From the NCBI GenBank assembly GCA_017609285.1, contig JAFCEE010000003.1:75529-139528 (forward strand): 64,000 nucleotides of DNA, written 5' to 3'. Below are positions 15,582 through 51,006 of the stretch, piece by piece (the stretch's first letter is position 1; each line of letters starts with the position of its first letter). A program made the position numbers and the translations under genes. The notes under the pieces were generated by a model, which ran no database searches, was not told the origin of the DNA, and worked only from the letters and a program-made list of their open reading frames with translations. The stretch is from Candidatus Pacearchaeota archaeon. GTDB lineage: Archaea > Nanobdellota > Nanobdellia > Pacearchaeales > GW2011-AR1.

Positions 15582-15687
15582 GGCTCCGTAGCTCAGCCTG
15601 GTTAGAGCACCGGCCTTTTAAACTGAACTATAACAGGAGATAAACAAAGAAAGCCGGGTGTCGAGGGTTCAAATCCCTCCGGGGCCA
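15582..15687 (+). tRNA. tRNA-Lys(UUU) with a 31-nt intron at the canonical 37/38 position
   Basis: Acceptor GGCUCCG/CGGGGCC; D arm GCUC-AGCCUGGUUA-GAGC; anticodon stem CCGGC/GCCGG with loop CU-UUU-A then intron 15621-15651 then A; variable GUGUC; T arm GAGGG-UUCAAAU-CCCUC; discriminator A. No CCA is encoded. An AT-rich TATA-like element lies ~25 nt upstream. Confidence 0.85.
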
Positions 15688-39652: not shown

Positions 39653-39857
39653 GATTTCTTATTCTGTTAAGTCGAATGAAAACCACTTTTATCAATAGCT
39701 TTATCAATAATAGATATAATATATCTTGGTAAAATGAGTTATTTTTTGGCATACTATCGCTTTTAACTAACAACATCTCTTATTAAAATTTTAATTATTC
39801 AGTATTTTTACTAACAAAATTAAAAAAATAAAGAAAAAGAAATTTTGTTTTGAGAAG

Positions 39858-39950
39858 TTATTCGTCATCAAGCTCTAAATCAGCTAAATCTTCTTCGTCT
39901 TCTTCTACATCTAAATTATCTTCGACATCAAACCCAAATTCATTATCCAT
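39858..39950 (-). CDS. possible 30-aa highly acidic micro-protein
   Basis: Hand translation: MDNEFGFDVEDNLDVEEDEEDLADLELDDE*. A TTTATAAA element lies ~45 nt upstream on the same strand. Below the ORF-track cutoff and could be fortuitous. Confidence 0.25.
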   Translation of the reverse strand: MDNEFGFDVEDNLDVEEDEEDLADLELDDE

Positions 39951-40230
39951 TTTTCTCACTCTTTTTTATTTGTTTTTTTCTGCATATTTTAATTTATAAA
40001 CTTTTCTATGAACAAGGAGAGCAGAGAAAGATTTATAAATATTCTAATATGTGTTTATAGAAGAAAGATATCATAAGATAAGAATCATTAATCACAATCA
40101 ACTTTCATTTATCATTCAGCTCATACTAATTTTTGAGAGCTTTAAATGTGGGAGTGAATTGTAAAGTGTAAAGTAGTAAGGAGATATCTTTCTTTATATA
40201 AATTTAAACTAAATTCAATTAGGAGGTAAA

Positions 40231-44668: not shown

Positions 44669-47533
44669 CTAAACTTCTAAACTTACAATTTTGCTTATGC
44701 CTTCTTGCATGCTTATCCCATACAAAACTGTAGATTCAGTAATAATTGCATCATTGTGAGTTATAATGATATACTGACCTGTTTTCATATATTTTTTGAT
44801 TAGTGCTGCTAATCTTTCTGAATTTCTTTTATCTAAGGCAGCATCTACTTCATCAAAGATGTAAAAGCAGTATGGCTTATATTCTTGTATAGCAAATATG
44901 AGAGATAAAGCCACGAGAGTCTGTTCTCCTCCGCTTAAAGAAGTAACATCAAAATATTTCCCTTTTCCTATTTTAATAACTATATCCAAACCTCCAGAAA
45001 ATATGTCTTCTTTATTTTCCAGTTCAAGAAAAACCTGTCCTTTTGTTGAAAGTTGTATGAAGTTTCTGTTAAATAATTCATTGATTGCTTTTAATGTCCT
45101 AAGAAAAGTTCTTTTCTTTTTTTTGTCAATTTCTTCAATAATTTTCAGGATTTCCTGTTTTTCTTTTTCCAAAACAGAAGCTTTATCAGCTATAACATCA
45201 TATTGTTTTTTTATTGAGTCGTAAACTTCTAGAGCTTTTAGATTCACATTTCCAATATTGTCAAGAGCTGTCTGAGTTTTATTAAGCCTTTCTTCTAAAA
45301 TATATGGTGGCAGGTTGAATATTTTAATATTTTTGTAAGGTTCAAAATCTATCCCTAAATTCTCTTGTTCTGCCTTCAATCTTGCTATTTCTATTTTTAG
45401 ATTATTTATTTTTTCATCAATAAGAGATATTCTATTTTGGCTCTCTAATAAAGAAGAGTTATTTTTATGAATCTCTTTTTCGAATAACCTTCTTTTTTCA
45501 ATTAATTTCTGGAATTTGGCTTCTAGTCTTCTGTTCTCTTCTTCTTTTTCAGATAATTGTTGTTGTTTCTCTGTTATTTCTCCATTTATTTCTTCTATTT
45601 CCTGTTTTAAATCCTGTTCTTGCCTATTTAACTGTTTTAAAGTAAGTTTGAAATTTTCAAAATTTTTTTCTTTAAATTGTAACTCTGTGTTTATGTTCTC
45701 TTTAGTTCTTGAAGAAATTTCTTGTATATCTAAAATAATTGTATCATATCTTTCTTCTACATCGTTGTATTGTAGAATTTTTTTCTGTAAAGTTCCTTTC
45801 TCTTTTTCTAAAAGTTTTATTTCTTTTTGTAAGTCTTCTTGTTCTTCAGAAAGGGTTTTTATCTGTTGTTTTTTATCTTCTATGTTCTCTAATTTTATAA
45901 GGTCTGTTTCTGCTTTTAGTATGTTAGATTGCAAGGAAGTAAGTTGTGATTTTGTCTGTTGGATTTCTTTTTCTATTTGTTTTAATGATTTCTGTTTTGT
46001 TTGTATTTTCTGTTCAAAGTCAGATATTTTTTCATTTGACTCTCTGAAAACCTGCTTAATGTGTTCTTTAGTAATTTTACTCTTGCAAAGAGGACAGATA
46101 TCTAGTTTGCTTACTTGGGTTTTTATTTTTTCTAAATTAGAGATTTCTGTTTTATAAGAGAAAATTAGGTTTTCTTCTTGTTTTGCTTGTTTCTGTAATT
46201 TCTCAAAGTCAGTTTCTGCTTCTTCTTTTTGTTTCTTTAATTTTTGGATTTCTTCTTTACAGTTTTCTTTTTGAAAAAAAGAAAGATGTTGGGAAATTTT
46301 GTCTGATTCTTTAATTAAGAAAAAGATGTTATTTTTATTTTTTTGTAATTGTTGTTGTTTGTCTTTTAATTTTTCTTTTACAGTATTGAGTTTTTCTTTT
46401 ATAGTATAATAGGTTTCCCGCTCTTTTTCTATTTGCTCTAACTGCTCTTTTTTTTCTTCAAGTTCTTTCTGTTTCTTTGCTTGTGTCGGAAACTCTTTTC
46501 TTAATTTTTCTATATCCTGTTTTAGAGTTTCTAGATTTGATTTAATTTTATCTTTTCTGGATAAAAGTTCCTCCAGCCTATTTTCATTATTCTCTTTTCT
46601 TACATCTAAACCTGCAAGTTCTGCTCTTAAATCTGAAATTTCCCTGTTAAGTTCATCCTGCTCTTTGCCAGATGATGTTTGTATTTGAGAGTTTATTTTT
46701 TCTATCTCTCCTTCTAACTCATGTATTTTTTTTGTAATTCTTGCTTCATTCCCTTTTTCATCTTCCTTTTTTTTCTCTTTATCTTCTAATTGTTTTGTAA
46801 AATTTGAAAGCTCTTTTTCTTTTTCTTTTAATCTCCTCTTTATTATACTTGCTTTATATCTCTCTATATCTTCCTTTAATTTTTTATATTTTAGAGCTTG
46901 TTTTCTTTCTTCTTCCAAATTTCGTAAATATGTAGCTCTCTCCCTTAATGTTACTCCTACTTGTTTTAATTTCTCTTCTGTTTTTTCCAATTCTCTTAAA
47001 CTTTTTTCTTTCCTTACTTCATATACAGAAATACCAGCAACTTCTTCTATAACTTTTCTTCTTTCTTCCCCAGACATTCTTATTATATTGTTTATTTCTC
47101 CTTGGAGGACTATATTAAAACCATAAGGATCTATTCCTGCTTGTCCTAAAAGCTCGAGAACTTCTTGTCTTGTTTTAGTTTTATTATTTATTTTGTATAT
47201 GCTTTGTCCACTACTCCTTACTATTCTCTCTATTATTATTTCTTTCTCCTCCAAAGAAAATTTTTTATCTGTGTTGTCTAGAATTAATTTAACAGATGCT
47301 TCCATCGCGGGCCTATGTTGTTTAGTTCCTGCAAAAATTAAGTTTGCTGATTTTGCTGCTCTTAAACTTTTTATGCTCATTCTTCCTAAAACAAAGCAAA
47401 TTGCATCTGTGATATTGGACTTGCCAGAACCATTAGGCCCGACTATCACATTCATACTATTTACAAAAGAAATTTCTGTTTCTTTTGGAAAACTTTTGAA
47501 ACCTTTTAACACCAATTTTTTTATATAAACCAT
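44669..47533 (-). CDS. SMC-family ATPase with a central CxxC hook-like motif and no recognisable hinge domain
   Basis: N-terminus MVYIKKLVLKGFKSFPKETEISF...VGPNGSGKSNITDAICFVLG (SMC-type Walker A). C-terminus LSGGEQTLVALSLIFAIQEYKPYCFYIFDEVDAALD (signature + Walker B). About 700 aa of K/E-rich coiled coil lies between them, with LDICPLCKSK at the midpoint (codons at 46086-46097). Confidence 0.8.
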   Translation of the reverse strand: MVYIKKLVLKGFKSFPKETEISFVNSMNVIVGPNGSGKSNITDAICFVLGRMSIKSLRAAKSANLIFAGTKQHRPAMEASVKLILDNTDKKFSLEEKEIIIERIVRSSGQSIYKINNKTKTRQEVLELLGQAGIDPYGFNIVLQGEINNIIRMSGEERRKVIEEVAGISVYEVRKEKSLRELEKTEEKLKQVGVTLRERATYLRNLEEERKQALKYKKLKEDIERYKASIIKRRLKEKEKELSNFTKQLEDKEKKKEDEKGNEARITKKIHELEGEIEKINSQIQTSSGKEQDELNREISDLRAELAGLDVRKENNENRLEELLSRKDKIKSNLETLKQDIEKLRKEFPTQAKKQKELEEKKEQLEQIEKERETYYTIKEKLNTVKEKLKDKQQQLQKNKNNIFFLIKESDKISQHLSFFQKENCKEEIQKLKKQKEEAETDFEKLQKQAKQEENLIFSYKTEISNLEKIKTQVSKLDICPLCKSKITKEHIKQVFRESNEKISDFEQKIQTKQKSLKQIEKEIQQTKSQLTSLQSNILKAETDLIKLENIEDKKQQIKTLSEEQEDLQKEIKLLEKEKGTLQKKILQYNDVEERYDTIILDIQEISSRTKENINTELQFKEKNFENFKLTLKQLNRQEQDLKQEIEEINGEITEKQQQLSEKEEENRRLEAKFQKLIEKRRLFEKEIHKNNSSLLESQNRISLIDEKINNLKIEIARLKAEQENLGIDFEPYKNIKIFNLPPYILEERLNKTQTALDNIGNVNLKALEVYDSIKKQYDVIADKASVLEKEKQEILKIIEEIDKKKKRTFLRTLKAINELFNRNFIQLSTKGQVFLELENKEDIFSGGLDIVIKIGKGKYFDVTSLSGGEQTLVALSLIFAIQEYKPYCFYIFDEVDAALDKRNSERLAALIKKYMKTGQYIIITHNDAIITESTVLYGISMQEGISKIVSLEV

Positions 47534-47602
47534 GAAGACAATAAAGGAAGAGTATATTTAAAGTTTTATTTTAAGTTTTTGAAAAAAGGACAAACCGAAA
47601 GA

Positions 47603-47610
47603 TTTATAAA
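47603..47610 (+). promoter_or_regulatory. TATA-like box upstream of the structured RNA
   Basis: TTTATAAA lies 23-30 nt upstream of the first paired nucleotide of the RNA (47633). Confidence 0.4.
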
Positions 47611-47632
47611 CACTAAAAACCTTTAAAAATTA

Positions 47633-47758
47633 ATGATGGAGCTGGTGGAGTAATCAAGTTTGGATCTTCGGATTTAAACTTGGCTTCGGACATCAGCAGG
47701 CGGAAGAAACAAGTGGAGTCTTCGGACAATACTTGTCTTCGGTCGCCTTTTCCATCAT
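47633..47758 (+). ncRNA. unclassified ~126-nt structured RNA (three-way junction, four cUUCGg motifs)
   Basis: Closing helix ATGATGGA (47633-40) / TCCATCAT (47751-58). Arm 1: GCTGGTG (47641-47) / CATCAGC (47691-97) encloses an 11-bp hairpin AAGTTTGGATC-TTCG-GATTTAAACTT (47656-81, two G-U pairs). Arm 2: GGCG..AAGA (47699-707) / TCTT..CGCC (47736-47) encloses ACAAGT-GGA-GTC-TTCG-GAC-AAT-ACTTGT (47709-36). The G-U pairs and UUCG loops only work on the + strand. A T5 run follows at 47774-78. Confidence 0.6.
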
Positions 47759-47901
47759 ATGTGTTTCTCTAGATTTTTAGGATTTTGTTAAGTTAATAAT
47801 ATTAGAATTTAATAAACTATGAAATAGTTCTAATATCCTCGACATTTATATCCTGGGGCTAAATGGTTATTTAGAATAGGAGCATTTTTTTTCTTTTTTT
47901 T

Positions 47902-50451: not shown

Positions 50452-51006
50452 CTATAATACAATAATTTTATTCTTTGTTTCCTTAGCTTTGTATAAAGCT
50501 TTATCAGCTCTTTTTTTAAAACTTGTTTCGCTGTCTCTTTTCTTATATTCTGTTAAGCCGGCAGAAATAGTAATATGAAAAGATTTTAATTTTTCTTCAA
50601 CAGATTTTCTTATTCTTTCTGCCACCTTTTTTGCTTTAATTGATGTGGTATTTGGTAACAAAACTATAAACTCTTCTCCTCCGAACCTTGCCACTATATC
50701 GGATTTTCTTACACAACTTTCAATTATTTTCGCTATTTTTATCAAGAATTTATCAGCTTTTATGTGGCCAAATTTTGTATTTATTTGTTTAAAATTATCT
50801 ACATCAAATATAGCTAAACTTAAATTTTCACCTCGTTTAGCTTTTTCAAATTCTATATTTAGGATTTCTTGAAAAAATTTATAATTATATAATCCTGTTT
50901 TTTCATCTTTTGTTGCTATCTCATATAAAGCATTTATATTTTTGTCAATATTTTCAATAAGTGATTTTAAATTTTCTCTTAAATGTTTTAAATTTTTAAC
51001 TTCCAT
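50452..51006 (-). CDS. GGDEF-domain diguanylate cyclase (stand-alone, short coiled-coil N-terminus)
   Basis: KDEKTGLYNYKFFQEIL...SLAIFDVDNFKQINTKFGH..ADKFL...RKSDIVARFGGEEFIVLLPNT...ITISAGL...ADKALYKAK. GGEEF active site, with RxxD exactly 5 residues upstream. Confidence 0.85.
   Translation of the reverse strand: MEVKNLKHLRENLKSLIENIDKNINALYEIATKDEKTGLYNYKFFQEILNIEFEKAKRGENLSLAIFDVDNFKQINTKFGHIKADKFLIKIAKIIESCVRKSDIVARFGGEEFIVLLPNTTSIKAKKVAERIRKSVEEKLKSFHITISAGLTEYKKRDSETSFKKRADKALYKAKETKNKIIVL

What the first reader, a model, noticed from the sequence alone, without database searches (positions are those of the whole stretch)
47633..47758. GC-rich ~126-nt RNA with four cUUCGg tetraloop motifs and a 5S-like three-way junction
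In an otherwise AT-rich 368-nt spacer, the hexamer CTTCGG occurs four times within 77 nt (47666-71, 47684-89, 47720-25, 47737-42). The segment folds by eye into a closing 8-bp helix and two arms, each carrying a long hairpin capped by C(UUCG)G. Several pairs are G-T on the plus strand, which fixes the polarity. A TTTATAAA box lies ~25-30 nt upstream and a T5 run ~15 nt downstream. The length and Y-shaped topology match 5S rRNA, but I could not find the conserved 5S loop sequences, nor C/D (no CUGA D box), SRP or RNase P signatures. It is either a highly divergent 5S rRNA, which is often missed in DPANN genomes, or a new structured RNA class.
Basis: seen in the sequence. Interest (0 to 1): 0.6.

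Follow-up and report, generated by a model that had tools for sequence, protein, structure and literature searches.

The report
Modular UUCG-hairpin RNA of DPANN archaea
This is a real small structured RNA gene in a tiny-genome (DPANN) archaeon, but it is not a 5S rRNA: it is two tandem copies of one hairpin module, and that module defines an RNA family, absent from Rfam, of unknown function.

Summary
Four CTTCGG motifs lie at the stated positions and the + strand folds into an 8-bp closing helix with two arms (-55 kcal/mol, z = -6.8). An archaeal BRE/TATA box lies upstream and a T-run downstream.

The 5S interpretation fails. No Rfam family matches, even at E <= 10. Arm 2 is a diverged copy of arm 1. 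Homologs in 16 other loci carry one, two or three copies of the same ~50-60-nt module. Among relatives chosen only by their SMC protein, the gene is present in 6 and absent near SMC in 5. It also sits in unrelated gene contexts.

Each module has four parts: a covarying basal stem, an almost invariant internal loop (5' G-R-R-N-A-A-W / 3' K-CUUCGG-R), a length-variable upper stem, and a UC[UUCG]GA cap. On 25 modules 92.5% of cells are paired and 17 of 20 pairs show compensatory changes.

Tests for tRNA, SRP RNA, C/D, H/ACA, K-turn and strict bulge-helix-bulge were not met. My best reading is a clade-specific, free-standing stable ncRNA. That it acts in trans as a multivalent protein-binding scaffold or decoy is inferred, not shown.

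The parts
47597..47610 (+). Archaeal BRE/TATA-type promoter box GAAAGATTTATAAA, 23-36 nt upstream of the RNA 5' end
   Evidence: Sequence. The same box (cgaaagNTTTAWATA) precedes every homolog. A similar box lies ~25-35 nt upstream of the tRNA at 15582. The motif is enriched in the window (34 found vs 18 expected). Transcription itself is not shown.
47633..47640 (+). Closing helix, 5' strand AUGAUGGA (reads like a C box, but is fully Watson-Crick paired)
   Evidence: MFE fold. It covaries in relatives: L106 GUGAUGGA/UCCAUUGC, L061 GUGAUGA/UCAUCAU, L071 CAAGCU/AGCUUG.
47641..47697 (+). Module 1: stem 47641-47/47691-97; 5' loop strand GAGUAAU 47648-54; upper stem 47655-66/47671-82 with UUCG loop 47667-70; 3' loop strand GCUUCGGA 47683-90
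   Evidence: CM R1 70 bits, R2 73 bits, E = 4e-25; covariation on 25 modules.
47698..47748 (+). Module 2, a diverged copy: stem GGCG 47699-702 / CGCC 47744-47; GAAGAAA 47703-09; upper stem 47710-20/47725-35 with UUCG loop 47721-24; UCUUCGGU 47736-43
   Evidence: CM R2 37.1 bits, E = 2e-12 with filters off. The same second-module type occurs in L112, L106 and L061.
47751..47758 (+). Closing helix, 3' strand UCCAUCAU
   Evidence: covariation as for the 5' strand.
47774..47778 (+). T5 run, likely archaeal oligo-T terminator (a shorter TTT lies at 47764-66)
   Evidence: Sequence. Every homolog is followed by a T-run within ~5-25 nt. The bacterial-type terminator scan found none, as expected for an archaeon.

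Best explanation
The segment 47633-47758 (+) is a free-standing small RNA gene of a family that I could not find in Rfam or the searched literature. The family is restricted to a subclade of Pacearchaeota/Woesearchaeota-like DPANN archaea.

The conserved unit is a ~50-60-nt hairpin module with four parts:
- a 5-9-bp basal stem;
- an internal loop whose 3' strand K-CUUCGG-R and whose 5' strand positions G1, A5, A6 never change;
- an 11-20-bp upper stem of free sequence;
- an apical UC[UUCG]GA cap.

Genes carry one to three modules in tandem. In the window two modules are enclosed by an 8-bp terminal helix, which gives the Y shape.

Shown: sequence signals for independent transcription (promoter box, T-run), strand polarity, secondary structure with strong covariation, modular duplication, patchy phyletic distribution, and no conserved neighbouring gene.

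Inferred: the RNA is stable and acts in trans. Each invariant internal loop (and possibly each CUUCGGA-bearing cap) is a docking site for one copy of an unidentified protein. The RNA would then work as a multivalent RNP scaffold or decoy whose valency changes by module duplication.
For: - Structure: -55 kcal/mol, z = -6.84.
- Homologs: 16 other loci, by SMC synteny and by a metagenome pattern scan that left both stems free.
- Covariation on 25 modules: 92.5% of cells paired vs 29-51% in slid controls; 17 of 20 pairs with compensatory changes; score 0.641 vs 0.259 in shuffles (0 of 500 reach it).
- Loop conservation in 26 modules: X1, X5, X6 and Y2-Y7 are invariant, X2 and X3 are purine-only, and X7/Y1 switch together (U.G in 21, A-U in 5).
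- Module number is 1 (L003, L004, L068, L104/L107), 2 (window, L112, L106, L061, L092, L071, L034, L077, L083, L090, L094, L099) or 3 (L088).
- A conserved BRE/TATA box and a T-run flank every copy.
- Flanking genes differ between loci: SMC/RNase HII; Lon-like protease; arginase/LigT; Memo; pentapeptide; AdoMet decarboxylase.
- No Rfam match, and no phage or plasmid match.
Against: - There is no expression data, so transcription and stability rest on sequence signals only.
- No protein partner is identified, and none is encoded next to the gene.
- Invariant loops fit other roles equally well: small-molecule or ion binding, catalysis, or RNA-RNA contacts.
- UNCG tetraloops are usually folding nucleators rather than protein sites.
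- The exact pairing inside the loop is unresolved. Three registers fit the data.
- The gene is absent near SMC in 5 of 11 protein-selected relatives. So it is dispensable or relocated, and the whole-genome distribution is unknown.
- The metagenome hits were found with a pattern that fixed the loop motifs, which inflates their apparent invariance. However, second modules and the synteny-selected loci were not constrained and show the same motifs.
Confidence: 0.4

Rival explanations
1. Substrate of the archaeal splicing endonuclease. The internal loop forms a relaxed bulge-helix-bulge: a 3' GGA bulge, a 3-4-bp helix GRR(N)/(C)UUC, then a 5' AA(W) bulge. Cleavage and ligation would release a small (circular) RNA carrying the conserved upper hairpin, or leave a 7-bp hairpin with a 7-nt loop.
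For: Register 1 pairing (X1-Y5, X2-Y4, X3-Y3) is possible in 26 of 26 modules, and the bulges lie on opposite strands with the same handedness as in tRNA-intron BHBs (the handedness comes from established knowledge of the BHB). Terminal modules of L088, L090, L094 and L099 have a clean 4-bp GAGC/GCUC helix next to a 3-nt AAU bulge. The lineage has intron-rich tRNAs.
Against: The strict hBHBh' form (two 3-nt bulges exactly 4 bp apart) is not met. The fourth pair is C.C or U.C in 16 of 26 modules, and X7-Y1 pairing leaves a 2-nt bulge or an extra nucleotide. BHB recognition depends on structure, so the near-invariant loop sequence is unexplained. The strongest conservation lies in the would-be 'intron'.
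Confidence: 0.1
2. Ligand-binding or catalytic RNA. Each module would be an aptamer or small ribozyme whose invariant internal loop is the active site, with tandem copies as in tandem riboswitch aptamers.
For: The internal-loop nucleotides are invariant between freely covarying helices, a pattern typical of aptamers and ribozymes. Tandem arrangement is common.
Against: No downstream co-oriented gene is consistently present, so it is not a cis riboswitch. No Rfam ribozyme or riboswitch model matches. The loop is small (about 6 x 7 nt).
Confidence: 0.1
3. Highly divergent 5S rRNA.
For: The length is ~126 nt. The fold is a three-way junction closed by paired 5' and 3' ends. It is GC-rich in an AT-rich genome and has its own promoter. 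No 5S gene lies in the 64-kb window.
Against: No 5S model hit even at E <= 10. The arms are duplicates of one module. Close relatives have one-arm (~75 nt), tandem two-arm or three-arm versions. The gene is absent near SMC in L001 and L108-L111. None of the 5S loop A/C/E sequences is present. Standard tools report 5S genes in other DPANN MAGs (PMC8561730).
Confidence: 0.03
4. Modification guide RNA: an atypical multi-hairpin H/ACA sRNA, or a C/D sRNA.
For: Archaeal H/ACA sRNAs have 1-3 hairpins, each with a lower stem, an internal loop and an upper stem. N. equitans has a single two-hairpin H/ACA RNA (PMC3491384). Here the 3' loop strand plus the basal stem total ~15 nt, the usual pocket-to-ACA distance. 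The 5' ends of window-type RNAs read RUGAUGR, like a C box.
Against: No ACA or ANA box follows the basal stems. The upper stem has no K-turn or K-loop. The loop strands are the same in all modules rather than target-specific. The C-box-like 5' end is Watson-Crick paired to UCAUCA, and no D box is conserved (CUGA occurs only in L003 and L112).
Confidence: 0.04
5. Not an RNA gene: a DNA-level or cis-acting element tied to the divergent SMC gene, for example a protein-binding inverted repeat, an insulator or terminator hairpins.
For: It lies in the SMC-RNase HII gap in about half of the loci.
Against: Pairs are kept through G.U on one strand only, so selection acts on RNA of the + strand. The element has its own promoter box. 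It also occurs in loci without SMC, and SMC loci without it exist.
Confidence: 0.03

Closest known systems
5S rRNA (Rfam RF00001)
   Same: About 120 nt. In the window version, a three-way junction closed by the paired 5' and 3' ends. A GC-rich island with its own promoter.
   Different: No model match. The two arms are paralogous copies of one module, not the distinct helix II/III and helix IV/V arms. No loop A/C/E signatures. Homologs have 1-3 arms. The gene is absent near SMC in some close relatives.
Archaeal multi-hairpin box H/ACA sRNAs
   Same: One to three hairpin units per RNA, each with a basal stem, an internal loop and an upper stem, transcribed as free-standing genes.
   Different: No ACA box and no K-turn or K-loop. 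The loop sequence is invariant between units and species rather than being a target-specific guide.
Multi-module protein-sequestering sRNAs (bacterial CsrB/RsmY/RsmZ type; Y RNAs as scaffolds)
   Same: A free-standing stable sRNA built from a variable number of repeated stem-loop modules, each presenting the same short invariant motif. Copy number varies between relatives.
   Different: This is a functional analogy only. The organisms are archaea, which have no CsrA. The motif (CUUCGGA plus GRRNAA) is unrelated, and no partner protein is known.
Bulge-helix-bulge (BHB) substrates of the archaeal splicing endonuclease
   Same: Two bulges on opposite strands separated by a short helix, with the same strand handedness as in pre-tRNA.
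   Different: Bulge sizes and spacing deviate from the 3-4-3 rule in most modules. The sequence is invariant, whereas BHBs are defined by structure only.

Membership tests
5S rRNA | Matches the 5S covariance model (sequence plus structure) | tested here: not met
   No Rfam hit at gathering threshold in the window, and none at E <= 10 with permissive filters on 47500-47900.
5S rRNA | Fixed three-helix-junction architecture with two non-equivalent arms, conserved in all relatives | tested here: not met
   Arm 2 is a copy of arm 1 (37 bits). Relatives have 1, 2 or 3 modules.
5S rRNA | Universal, essential gene present in every genome of the lineage | tested here: inconclusive
   The RNA is absent within 3-10 kb of SMC in L001 and L108-L111, which are close relatives. 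Whole genomes could not be scanned, and a canonical 5S in the same genome could not be looked for.
Box H/ACA sRNA | ACA (ANA) box immediately 3' of the lower stem | tested here: not met
   The trinucleotides after the basal stems are AGG, UCA, AAC, AAU, GGG, CCA, UGA, UUU and others, with no ACA consensus.
Box H/ACA sRNA | K-turn or K-loop in the upper stem for L7Ae | tested here: not met
   The upper stem is an almost perfect 11-20-bp duplex capped by UUCG.
Box H/ACA sRNA | Pocket strands are target-specific guides that differ between hairpins | tested here: not met
   The 3' strand is CUUCGG in 26 of 26 modules, and 5' strand positions G1, A5 and A6 are invariant.
Box C/D sRNA | C box (RUGAUGA) and D box (CUGA) forming a terminal K-turn, plus internal C'/D' boxes | tested here: not met
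   The 5' RUGAUGR is Watson-Crick paired with 3' UCAUCA. CUGA occurs at the 3' end only in L003 and L112. There are no internal boxes.
Kink-turn motif | 3-nt bulge followed by tandem sheared G.A/A.G pairs between a C helix and an NC helix | tested here: not met
   No orientation places G-A after a 3-nt bulge in all modules. X4 is C or U in 16 of 26, X2 is G in 8 of 26, and Y8 is U or G in 5 of 26.
Bulge-helix-bulge (hBHBh') | Two 3-nt bulges on opposite strands separated by exactly 4 base pairs | tested here: not met
   In register 1 the fourth pair is standard in only 10 of 26 modules, and the 5' bulge is 2 nt if X7-Y1 pair. A relaxed BHB cannot be excluded.
tRNA / tRNA-like | Cloverleaf recognised by tRNA models | tested here: not met
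   ARAGORN and the Rfam tRNA model find other tRNAs in the window but nothing here.
Archaeal SRP RNA / RNase P RNA | Match to the family covariance model (helix 8 motif with GNAR loops; P4/CR regions) | tested here: not met
   No Rfam hit at E <= 10. The loops are UUCG, and the RNA is 75-190 nt in homologs.

The most novel reading that the evidence does not exclude
This is a previously undescribed class of archaeal ncRNA. It is a copy-number-variable array of a ~55-nt 'double-CUUCGGA' hairpin module, specific to a Pacearchaeota-like DPANN subclade. It would work either as a multivalent RNP scaffold or decoy for an unknown protein, or as a sequence-specific relaxed-BHB substrate that yields small circular RNAs.
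Probability: 0.55. Interest if true: 0.65.

Novelty: categorically new. Interest (0 to 1): 0.55.

Why it matters
DPANN archaea have very small genomes and almost no characterised non-coding RNAs beyond rRNA, tRNA and a few guide RNAs. A strongly covarying, promoter-equipped RNA family with invariant loop nucleotides in such streamlined genomes implies a selected function. That function could lie in RNA processing, translation control or host interaction.

Its modular build, with 1-3 copies, gives a natural experiment in valency. The module is short enough (~55 nt) for direct biochemistry: pull-downs, structure determination and endonuclease assays.

The result also removes a false lead. The RNA should not be annotated as the 'missing' 5S rRNA of DPANN MAGs.

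Tried and rejected
- Rfam at gathering threshold on the window and on ~270 kb of related loci found only tRNAs. Rfam at E <= 10 on the region found nothing.
- The bacterial promoter/terminator scan was uninformative for an archaeon.
- A viral-contig pattern scan gave 5 hits, all chance matches that do not fit the structure.
- SMC-anchored loci from genome contigs (51 loci, SMC 38-60% identical): only L034 carries the RNA. Regions upstream of SMC in distant relatives hold no comparable GC-rich island.
- Weak model hits were rejected. L035 lies inside a coding region. L070, L069 and L097 do not form the stems.
- RNAalifold on six full-length RNAs recovered both arms but not the closing helix, because the ends were misaligned. 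I checked the closing helix by eye instead.
- Thermodynamic folding did not settle the internal-loop register. Alternatives lie within ~1 kcal/mol and differ between modules.
- A second exact copy of the promoter box at 40026 sits in a 578-nt gap, but no structured GC-rich RNA follows it.
- I could not name the organism or get its record. The SMC cluster carries no name, and the exact protein is not in the gene-position index.
- Five literature searches found no description of this RNA.
- There is no match in phage or plasmid collections.
- I could not test whether a canonical 5S gene exists elsewhere in the same genome.

Full report
OBSERVATION. CTTCGG occurs four times on the + strand at 47666, 47684, 47720 and 47737. 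The whole 64-kb window has only 11 occurrences on both strands, against 5.6 expected. The segment is a local GC peak of 0.46, against 0.22-0.30 in the flanks. RNA folding of 47633-47758 (+) gives an 8-bp closing helix (AUGAUGGA/UCCAUCAU) and two long arms at -55 kcal/mol. The z-score is -6.84, and none of 200 shuffles folds as well. The reverse strand is clearly worse (-38.4, z = -4.7). TTTATAAA lies at 47603-47610 and a T5 run at 47774-47778. No ORF of 50 aa or more overlaps the 368-nt spacer. One correction applies: two CUUCGG motifs cap the hairpins, and the other two sit on the 3' strand of each arm's internal loop.

ORGANISM AND CONTEXT. The window carries an intron-containing tRNA. Its SMC protein (44669-47533, minus strand) has its best relatives in MAGs labelled Nanoarchaeota, Pacearchaeota or Woesearchaeota, so this is a DPANN archaeon. 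The RNA lies between the divergently transcribed SMC gene and a bPH_2 membrane protein, which is followed by RNase HII.

KNOWN FAMILIES. Rfam 15 finds only two tRNAs in the window at gathering threshold. On 47500-47900 it finds nothing at all at E <= 10 with permissive filters. ARAGORN finds nothing there either.

HOMOLOGS. Contigs encoding SMC proteins 62-64% identical keep the RNase HII - gap - SMC synteny. L003 and L004 carry a shorter RNA of ~75 nt with a single arm in the gap, and it has the same promoter box and T-run. L001 has a 195-aa ORF there instead. Of 51 SMC-anchored loci from reference genomes (SMC 38-60% identical), only L034 (59%) carries the element. There it is two tandem arms with only a short (~4-bp) closing helix.

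I ran one metagenome scan with a pattern that fixed only loop and junction motifs and left both stems free. Combined with a covariance model, it gave 13 loci with real matches. Most have two adjacent modules, L088 has three, and L068 and L104 have one.

Six further loci were chosen only by SMC protein identity (54-62%). Two carry the RNA: L112 is a near-replica of the window's two-module form, and L107 has one module. Four lack it (L108-L111), including L110, which has the same bPH_2-SMC arrangement as the window.

About half of all loci keep the SMC/RNase HII neighbourhood. The others sit next to a Lon-like protease, arginase and LigT, Memo, a pentapeptide protein or AdoMet decarboxylase. No neighbouring protein is conserved. 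The RNA has no match in the phage or plasmid collections.

THE UNIT IS A MODULE. The six first-found arms align with invariant blocks. The window's arm 2 (47698-47748) scores 37.1 bits (E = 2e-12) against the module model, and arm 1 scores 73 bits. A module consists of a basal stem of 5-9 bp, a 5' loop strand X (7 nt), an upper stem of 11-20 bp capped by UC[UUCG]GAUU, a 3' loop strand Y (8 nt), and the return strand of the basal stem.

On 25 modules aligned to the model, 92.5% of cells form standard pairs. The slid controls reach only 29-51%. Seventeen of 20 pairs show changes on both sides. The covariation score is 0.641 against 0.259 in shuffles, and 0 of 500 shuffles reach it. All seven basal-stem pairs covary. 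Because the alignment was fitted to the model it leans toward the structure, but the pattern used for retrieval did not constrain either stem. One pair is G.U in 16 modules and A-U in 8, which fixes the transcribed strand.

The closing helix of the two-module forms also changes in a compensatory way. It is AUGAUGGA/UCCAUCAU in the window, GUGAUGGA/UCCAUUGC in L106, GUGAUGA/UCAUCAU in L061 and CAAGCU/AGCUUG in L071. The Y shape is therefore real for this subgroup.

THE INTERNAL LOOP. In 26 modules, X is G-R-R-N-A-A-W and Y is K-C-U-U-C-G-G-R. X1, X5, X6 and Y2-Y7 are invariant. X2 and X3 are purines only, while X4 is C, G or U. X7 and Y1 switch together (U.G in 21 modules, A-U in 5). Because these five are all second modules and could stem from few events, this counts as weak covariation.

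Three pairing schemes fit:
- GRR pairs with UUC, leaving a 3' GGA bulge and a 5' (N)AA bulge.
- AA pairs with UU, next to a 3x3 purine loop (G.A, R.G, R.G).
- Y forms a one- or two-pair C(UUCG)G mini-hairpin, making a three-way junction.

Because Y never varies, covariation cannot choose between them, and thermodynamic folding is ambiguous. In the terminal modules of L088, L090, L094 and L099 the CUUCGGA strand is replaced by GCUCUGA/GCUUUGA, which pairs with GAGC and leaves AAU as a 3-nt bulge.

TRANSCRIPTION SIGNALS. A box cgaaagNTTTAWATA lies ~35-45 nt upstream of the first module in every locus (~23-36 nt before the predicted RNA 5' end in the window), and a T-run follows the last module. 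The box is a general archaeal BRE/TATA type. It is enriched in the window (34 vs 18 expected), and a similar one precedes the tRNA at 15582 at the same distance. Transcription itself is inferred.

WHAT IT IS NOT.
- 5S rRNA: no model match, paralogous arms, 1-3 arms in relatives, and patchy presence. 5S genes are routinely found in other DPANN MAGs with standard tools (PMC8561730).
- H/ACA: no ACA box, no K-turn, and invariant 'pocket' strands. By contrast, the single two-hairpin H/ACA RNA of N. equitans has ACA boxes and K-turns (PMC3491384).
- C/D: the C-box-like 5' end RUGAUGR is simply base-paired, and no D box is conserved.
- K-turn: no orientation fits all modules.
- Strict BHB: the 3-4-3 geometry is not met in most modules, although a relaxed BHB remains possible.
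- DNA-level or cis element: one-strand G.U conservation, its own promoter and variable context argue against it.

MOST LIKELY MECHANISM. The pattern is freely covarying helices that frame short invariant loop strands, repeated one to three times in a free-standing, promoter-driven gene with no fixed neighbour. This is the pattern of stable trans-acting RNAs that present a recognition site to a partner. I consider a multivalent protein-binding scaffold or decoy the best reading (about 0.4). A relaxed-BHB endonuclease substrate and a ligand-binding or catalytic module follow at about 0.1 each. The structure, modularity and distribution are shown. The partner and the mode of action are inferred.

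NOVELTY AND SCORE. Nothing in Rfam 15 or in five full-text literature searches corresponds to it. It failed every membership test that could be run, so I rate it as a new RNA family of unknown kind, restricted to a DPANN subclade. It is a solid, testable discovery-type finding rather than a paradigm change: interest 0.55.

Noticed in passing
window 50452-51006 (-): A 184-aa protein with a strong GGDEF diguanylate-cyclase domain (E = 5e-41) in a DPANN archaeon. To my knowledge c-di-GMP signalling is rare in archaea.
   Followed up: no
window 15582-15687 (+): A tRNA (anticodon UUU by reading) with a 32-nt intron after position 37. The Rfam tRNA model found it (59 bits) but ARAGORN missed it. Several related loci have tRNAs of ~145-180 nt, which implies long introns.
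   Followed up: partly
proteins P0038, P0044, P0045, P0101, P0114: SMC homologs of ~1470-1484 aa with LAGLIDADG and intein-splicing domains, i.e. intein-containing SMC genes in related DPANN lineages.
   Followed up: no
L001 9312-9899 (minus strand of locus): In a close relative (SMC 63% identical), a 195-aa ORF with no Pfam hit on record occupies the RNase HII-SMC gap where the RNA lies in other relatives.
   Followed up: no
L014, ~450 nt upstream of SMC: Two to three tandem direct repeats of a ~60-nt unit (tttatttcctttttatttaatcgtcatgctcgaaaatttcttgttttcgttgtatgtca) lie in the SMC upstream region of a Woesearchaeota MAG.
   Followed up: no
L088 405-452, L090 9958-10029, L094 1457-1534, L099 2700-2777: The last module of these RNAs has a much longer upper stem. 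It replaces the invariant CUUCGGA strand with GCUCUGA/GCUUUGA, which pairs with GAGC. It is either a degenerate module or a terminator-proximal variant.
   Followed up: partly
window 47633-47639; L106, L061, L092, L112, L003 5' ends: The first nucleotides of the RNA read RUGAUGR, like a box C. L003 and L112 also have CUGA near the 3' end. In L003 the ends could form tandem G.A pairs instead of a Watson-Crick helix.
   Followed up: partly
window 39653-40230: A 578-nt gap without long ORFs holds an exact second copy of the promoter box GAAAGATTTATAAA (40026-40039) and a tiny acidic ORF on the minus strand (~39858-39950). No GC-rich structured island was seen.
   Followed up: partly
L110 2832-3000: The bPH_2-SMC gap of this relative lacks the RNA but contains a duplicated ~25-nt segment (aaaaacttccatac...).
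   Followed up: no
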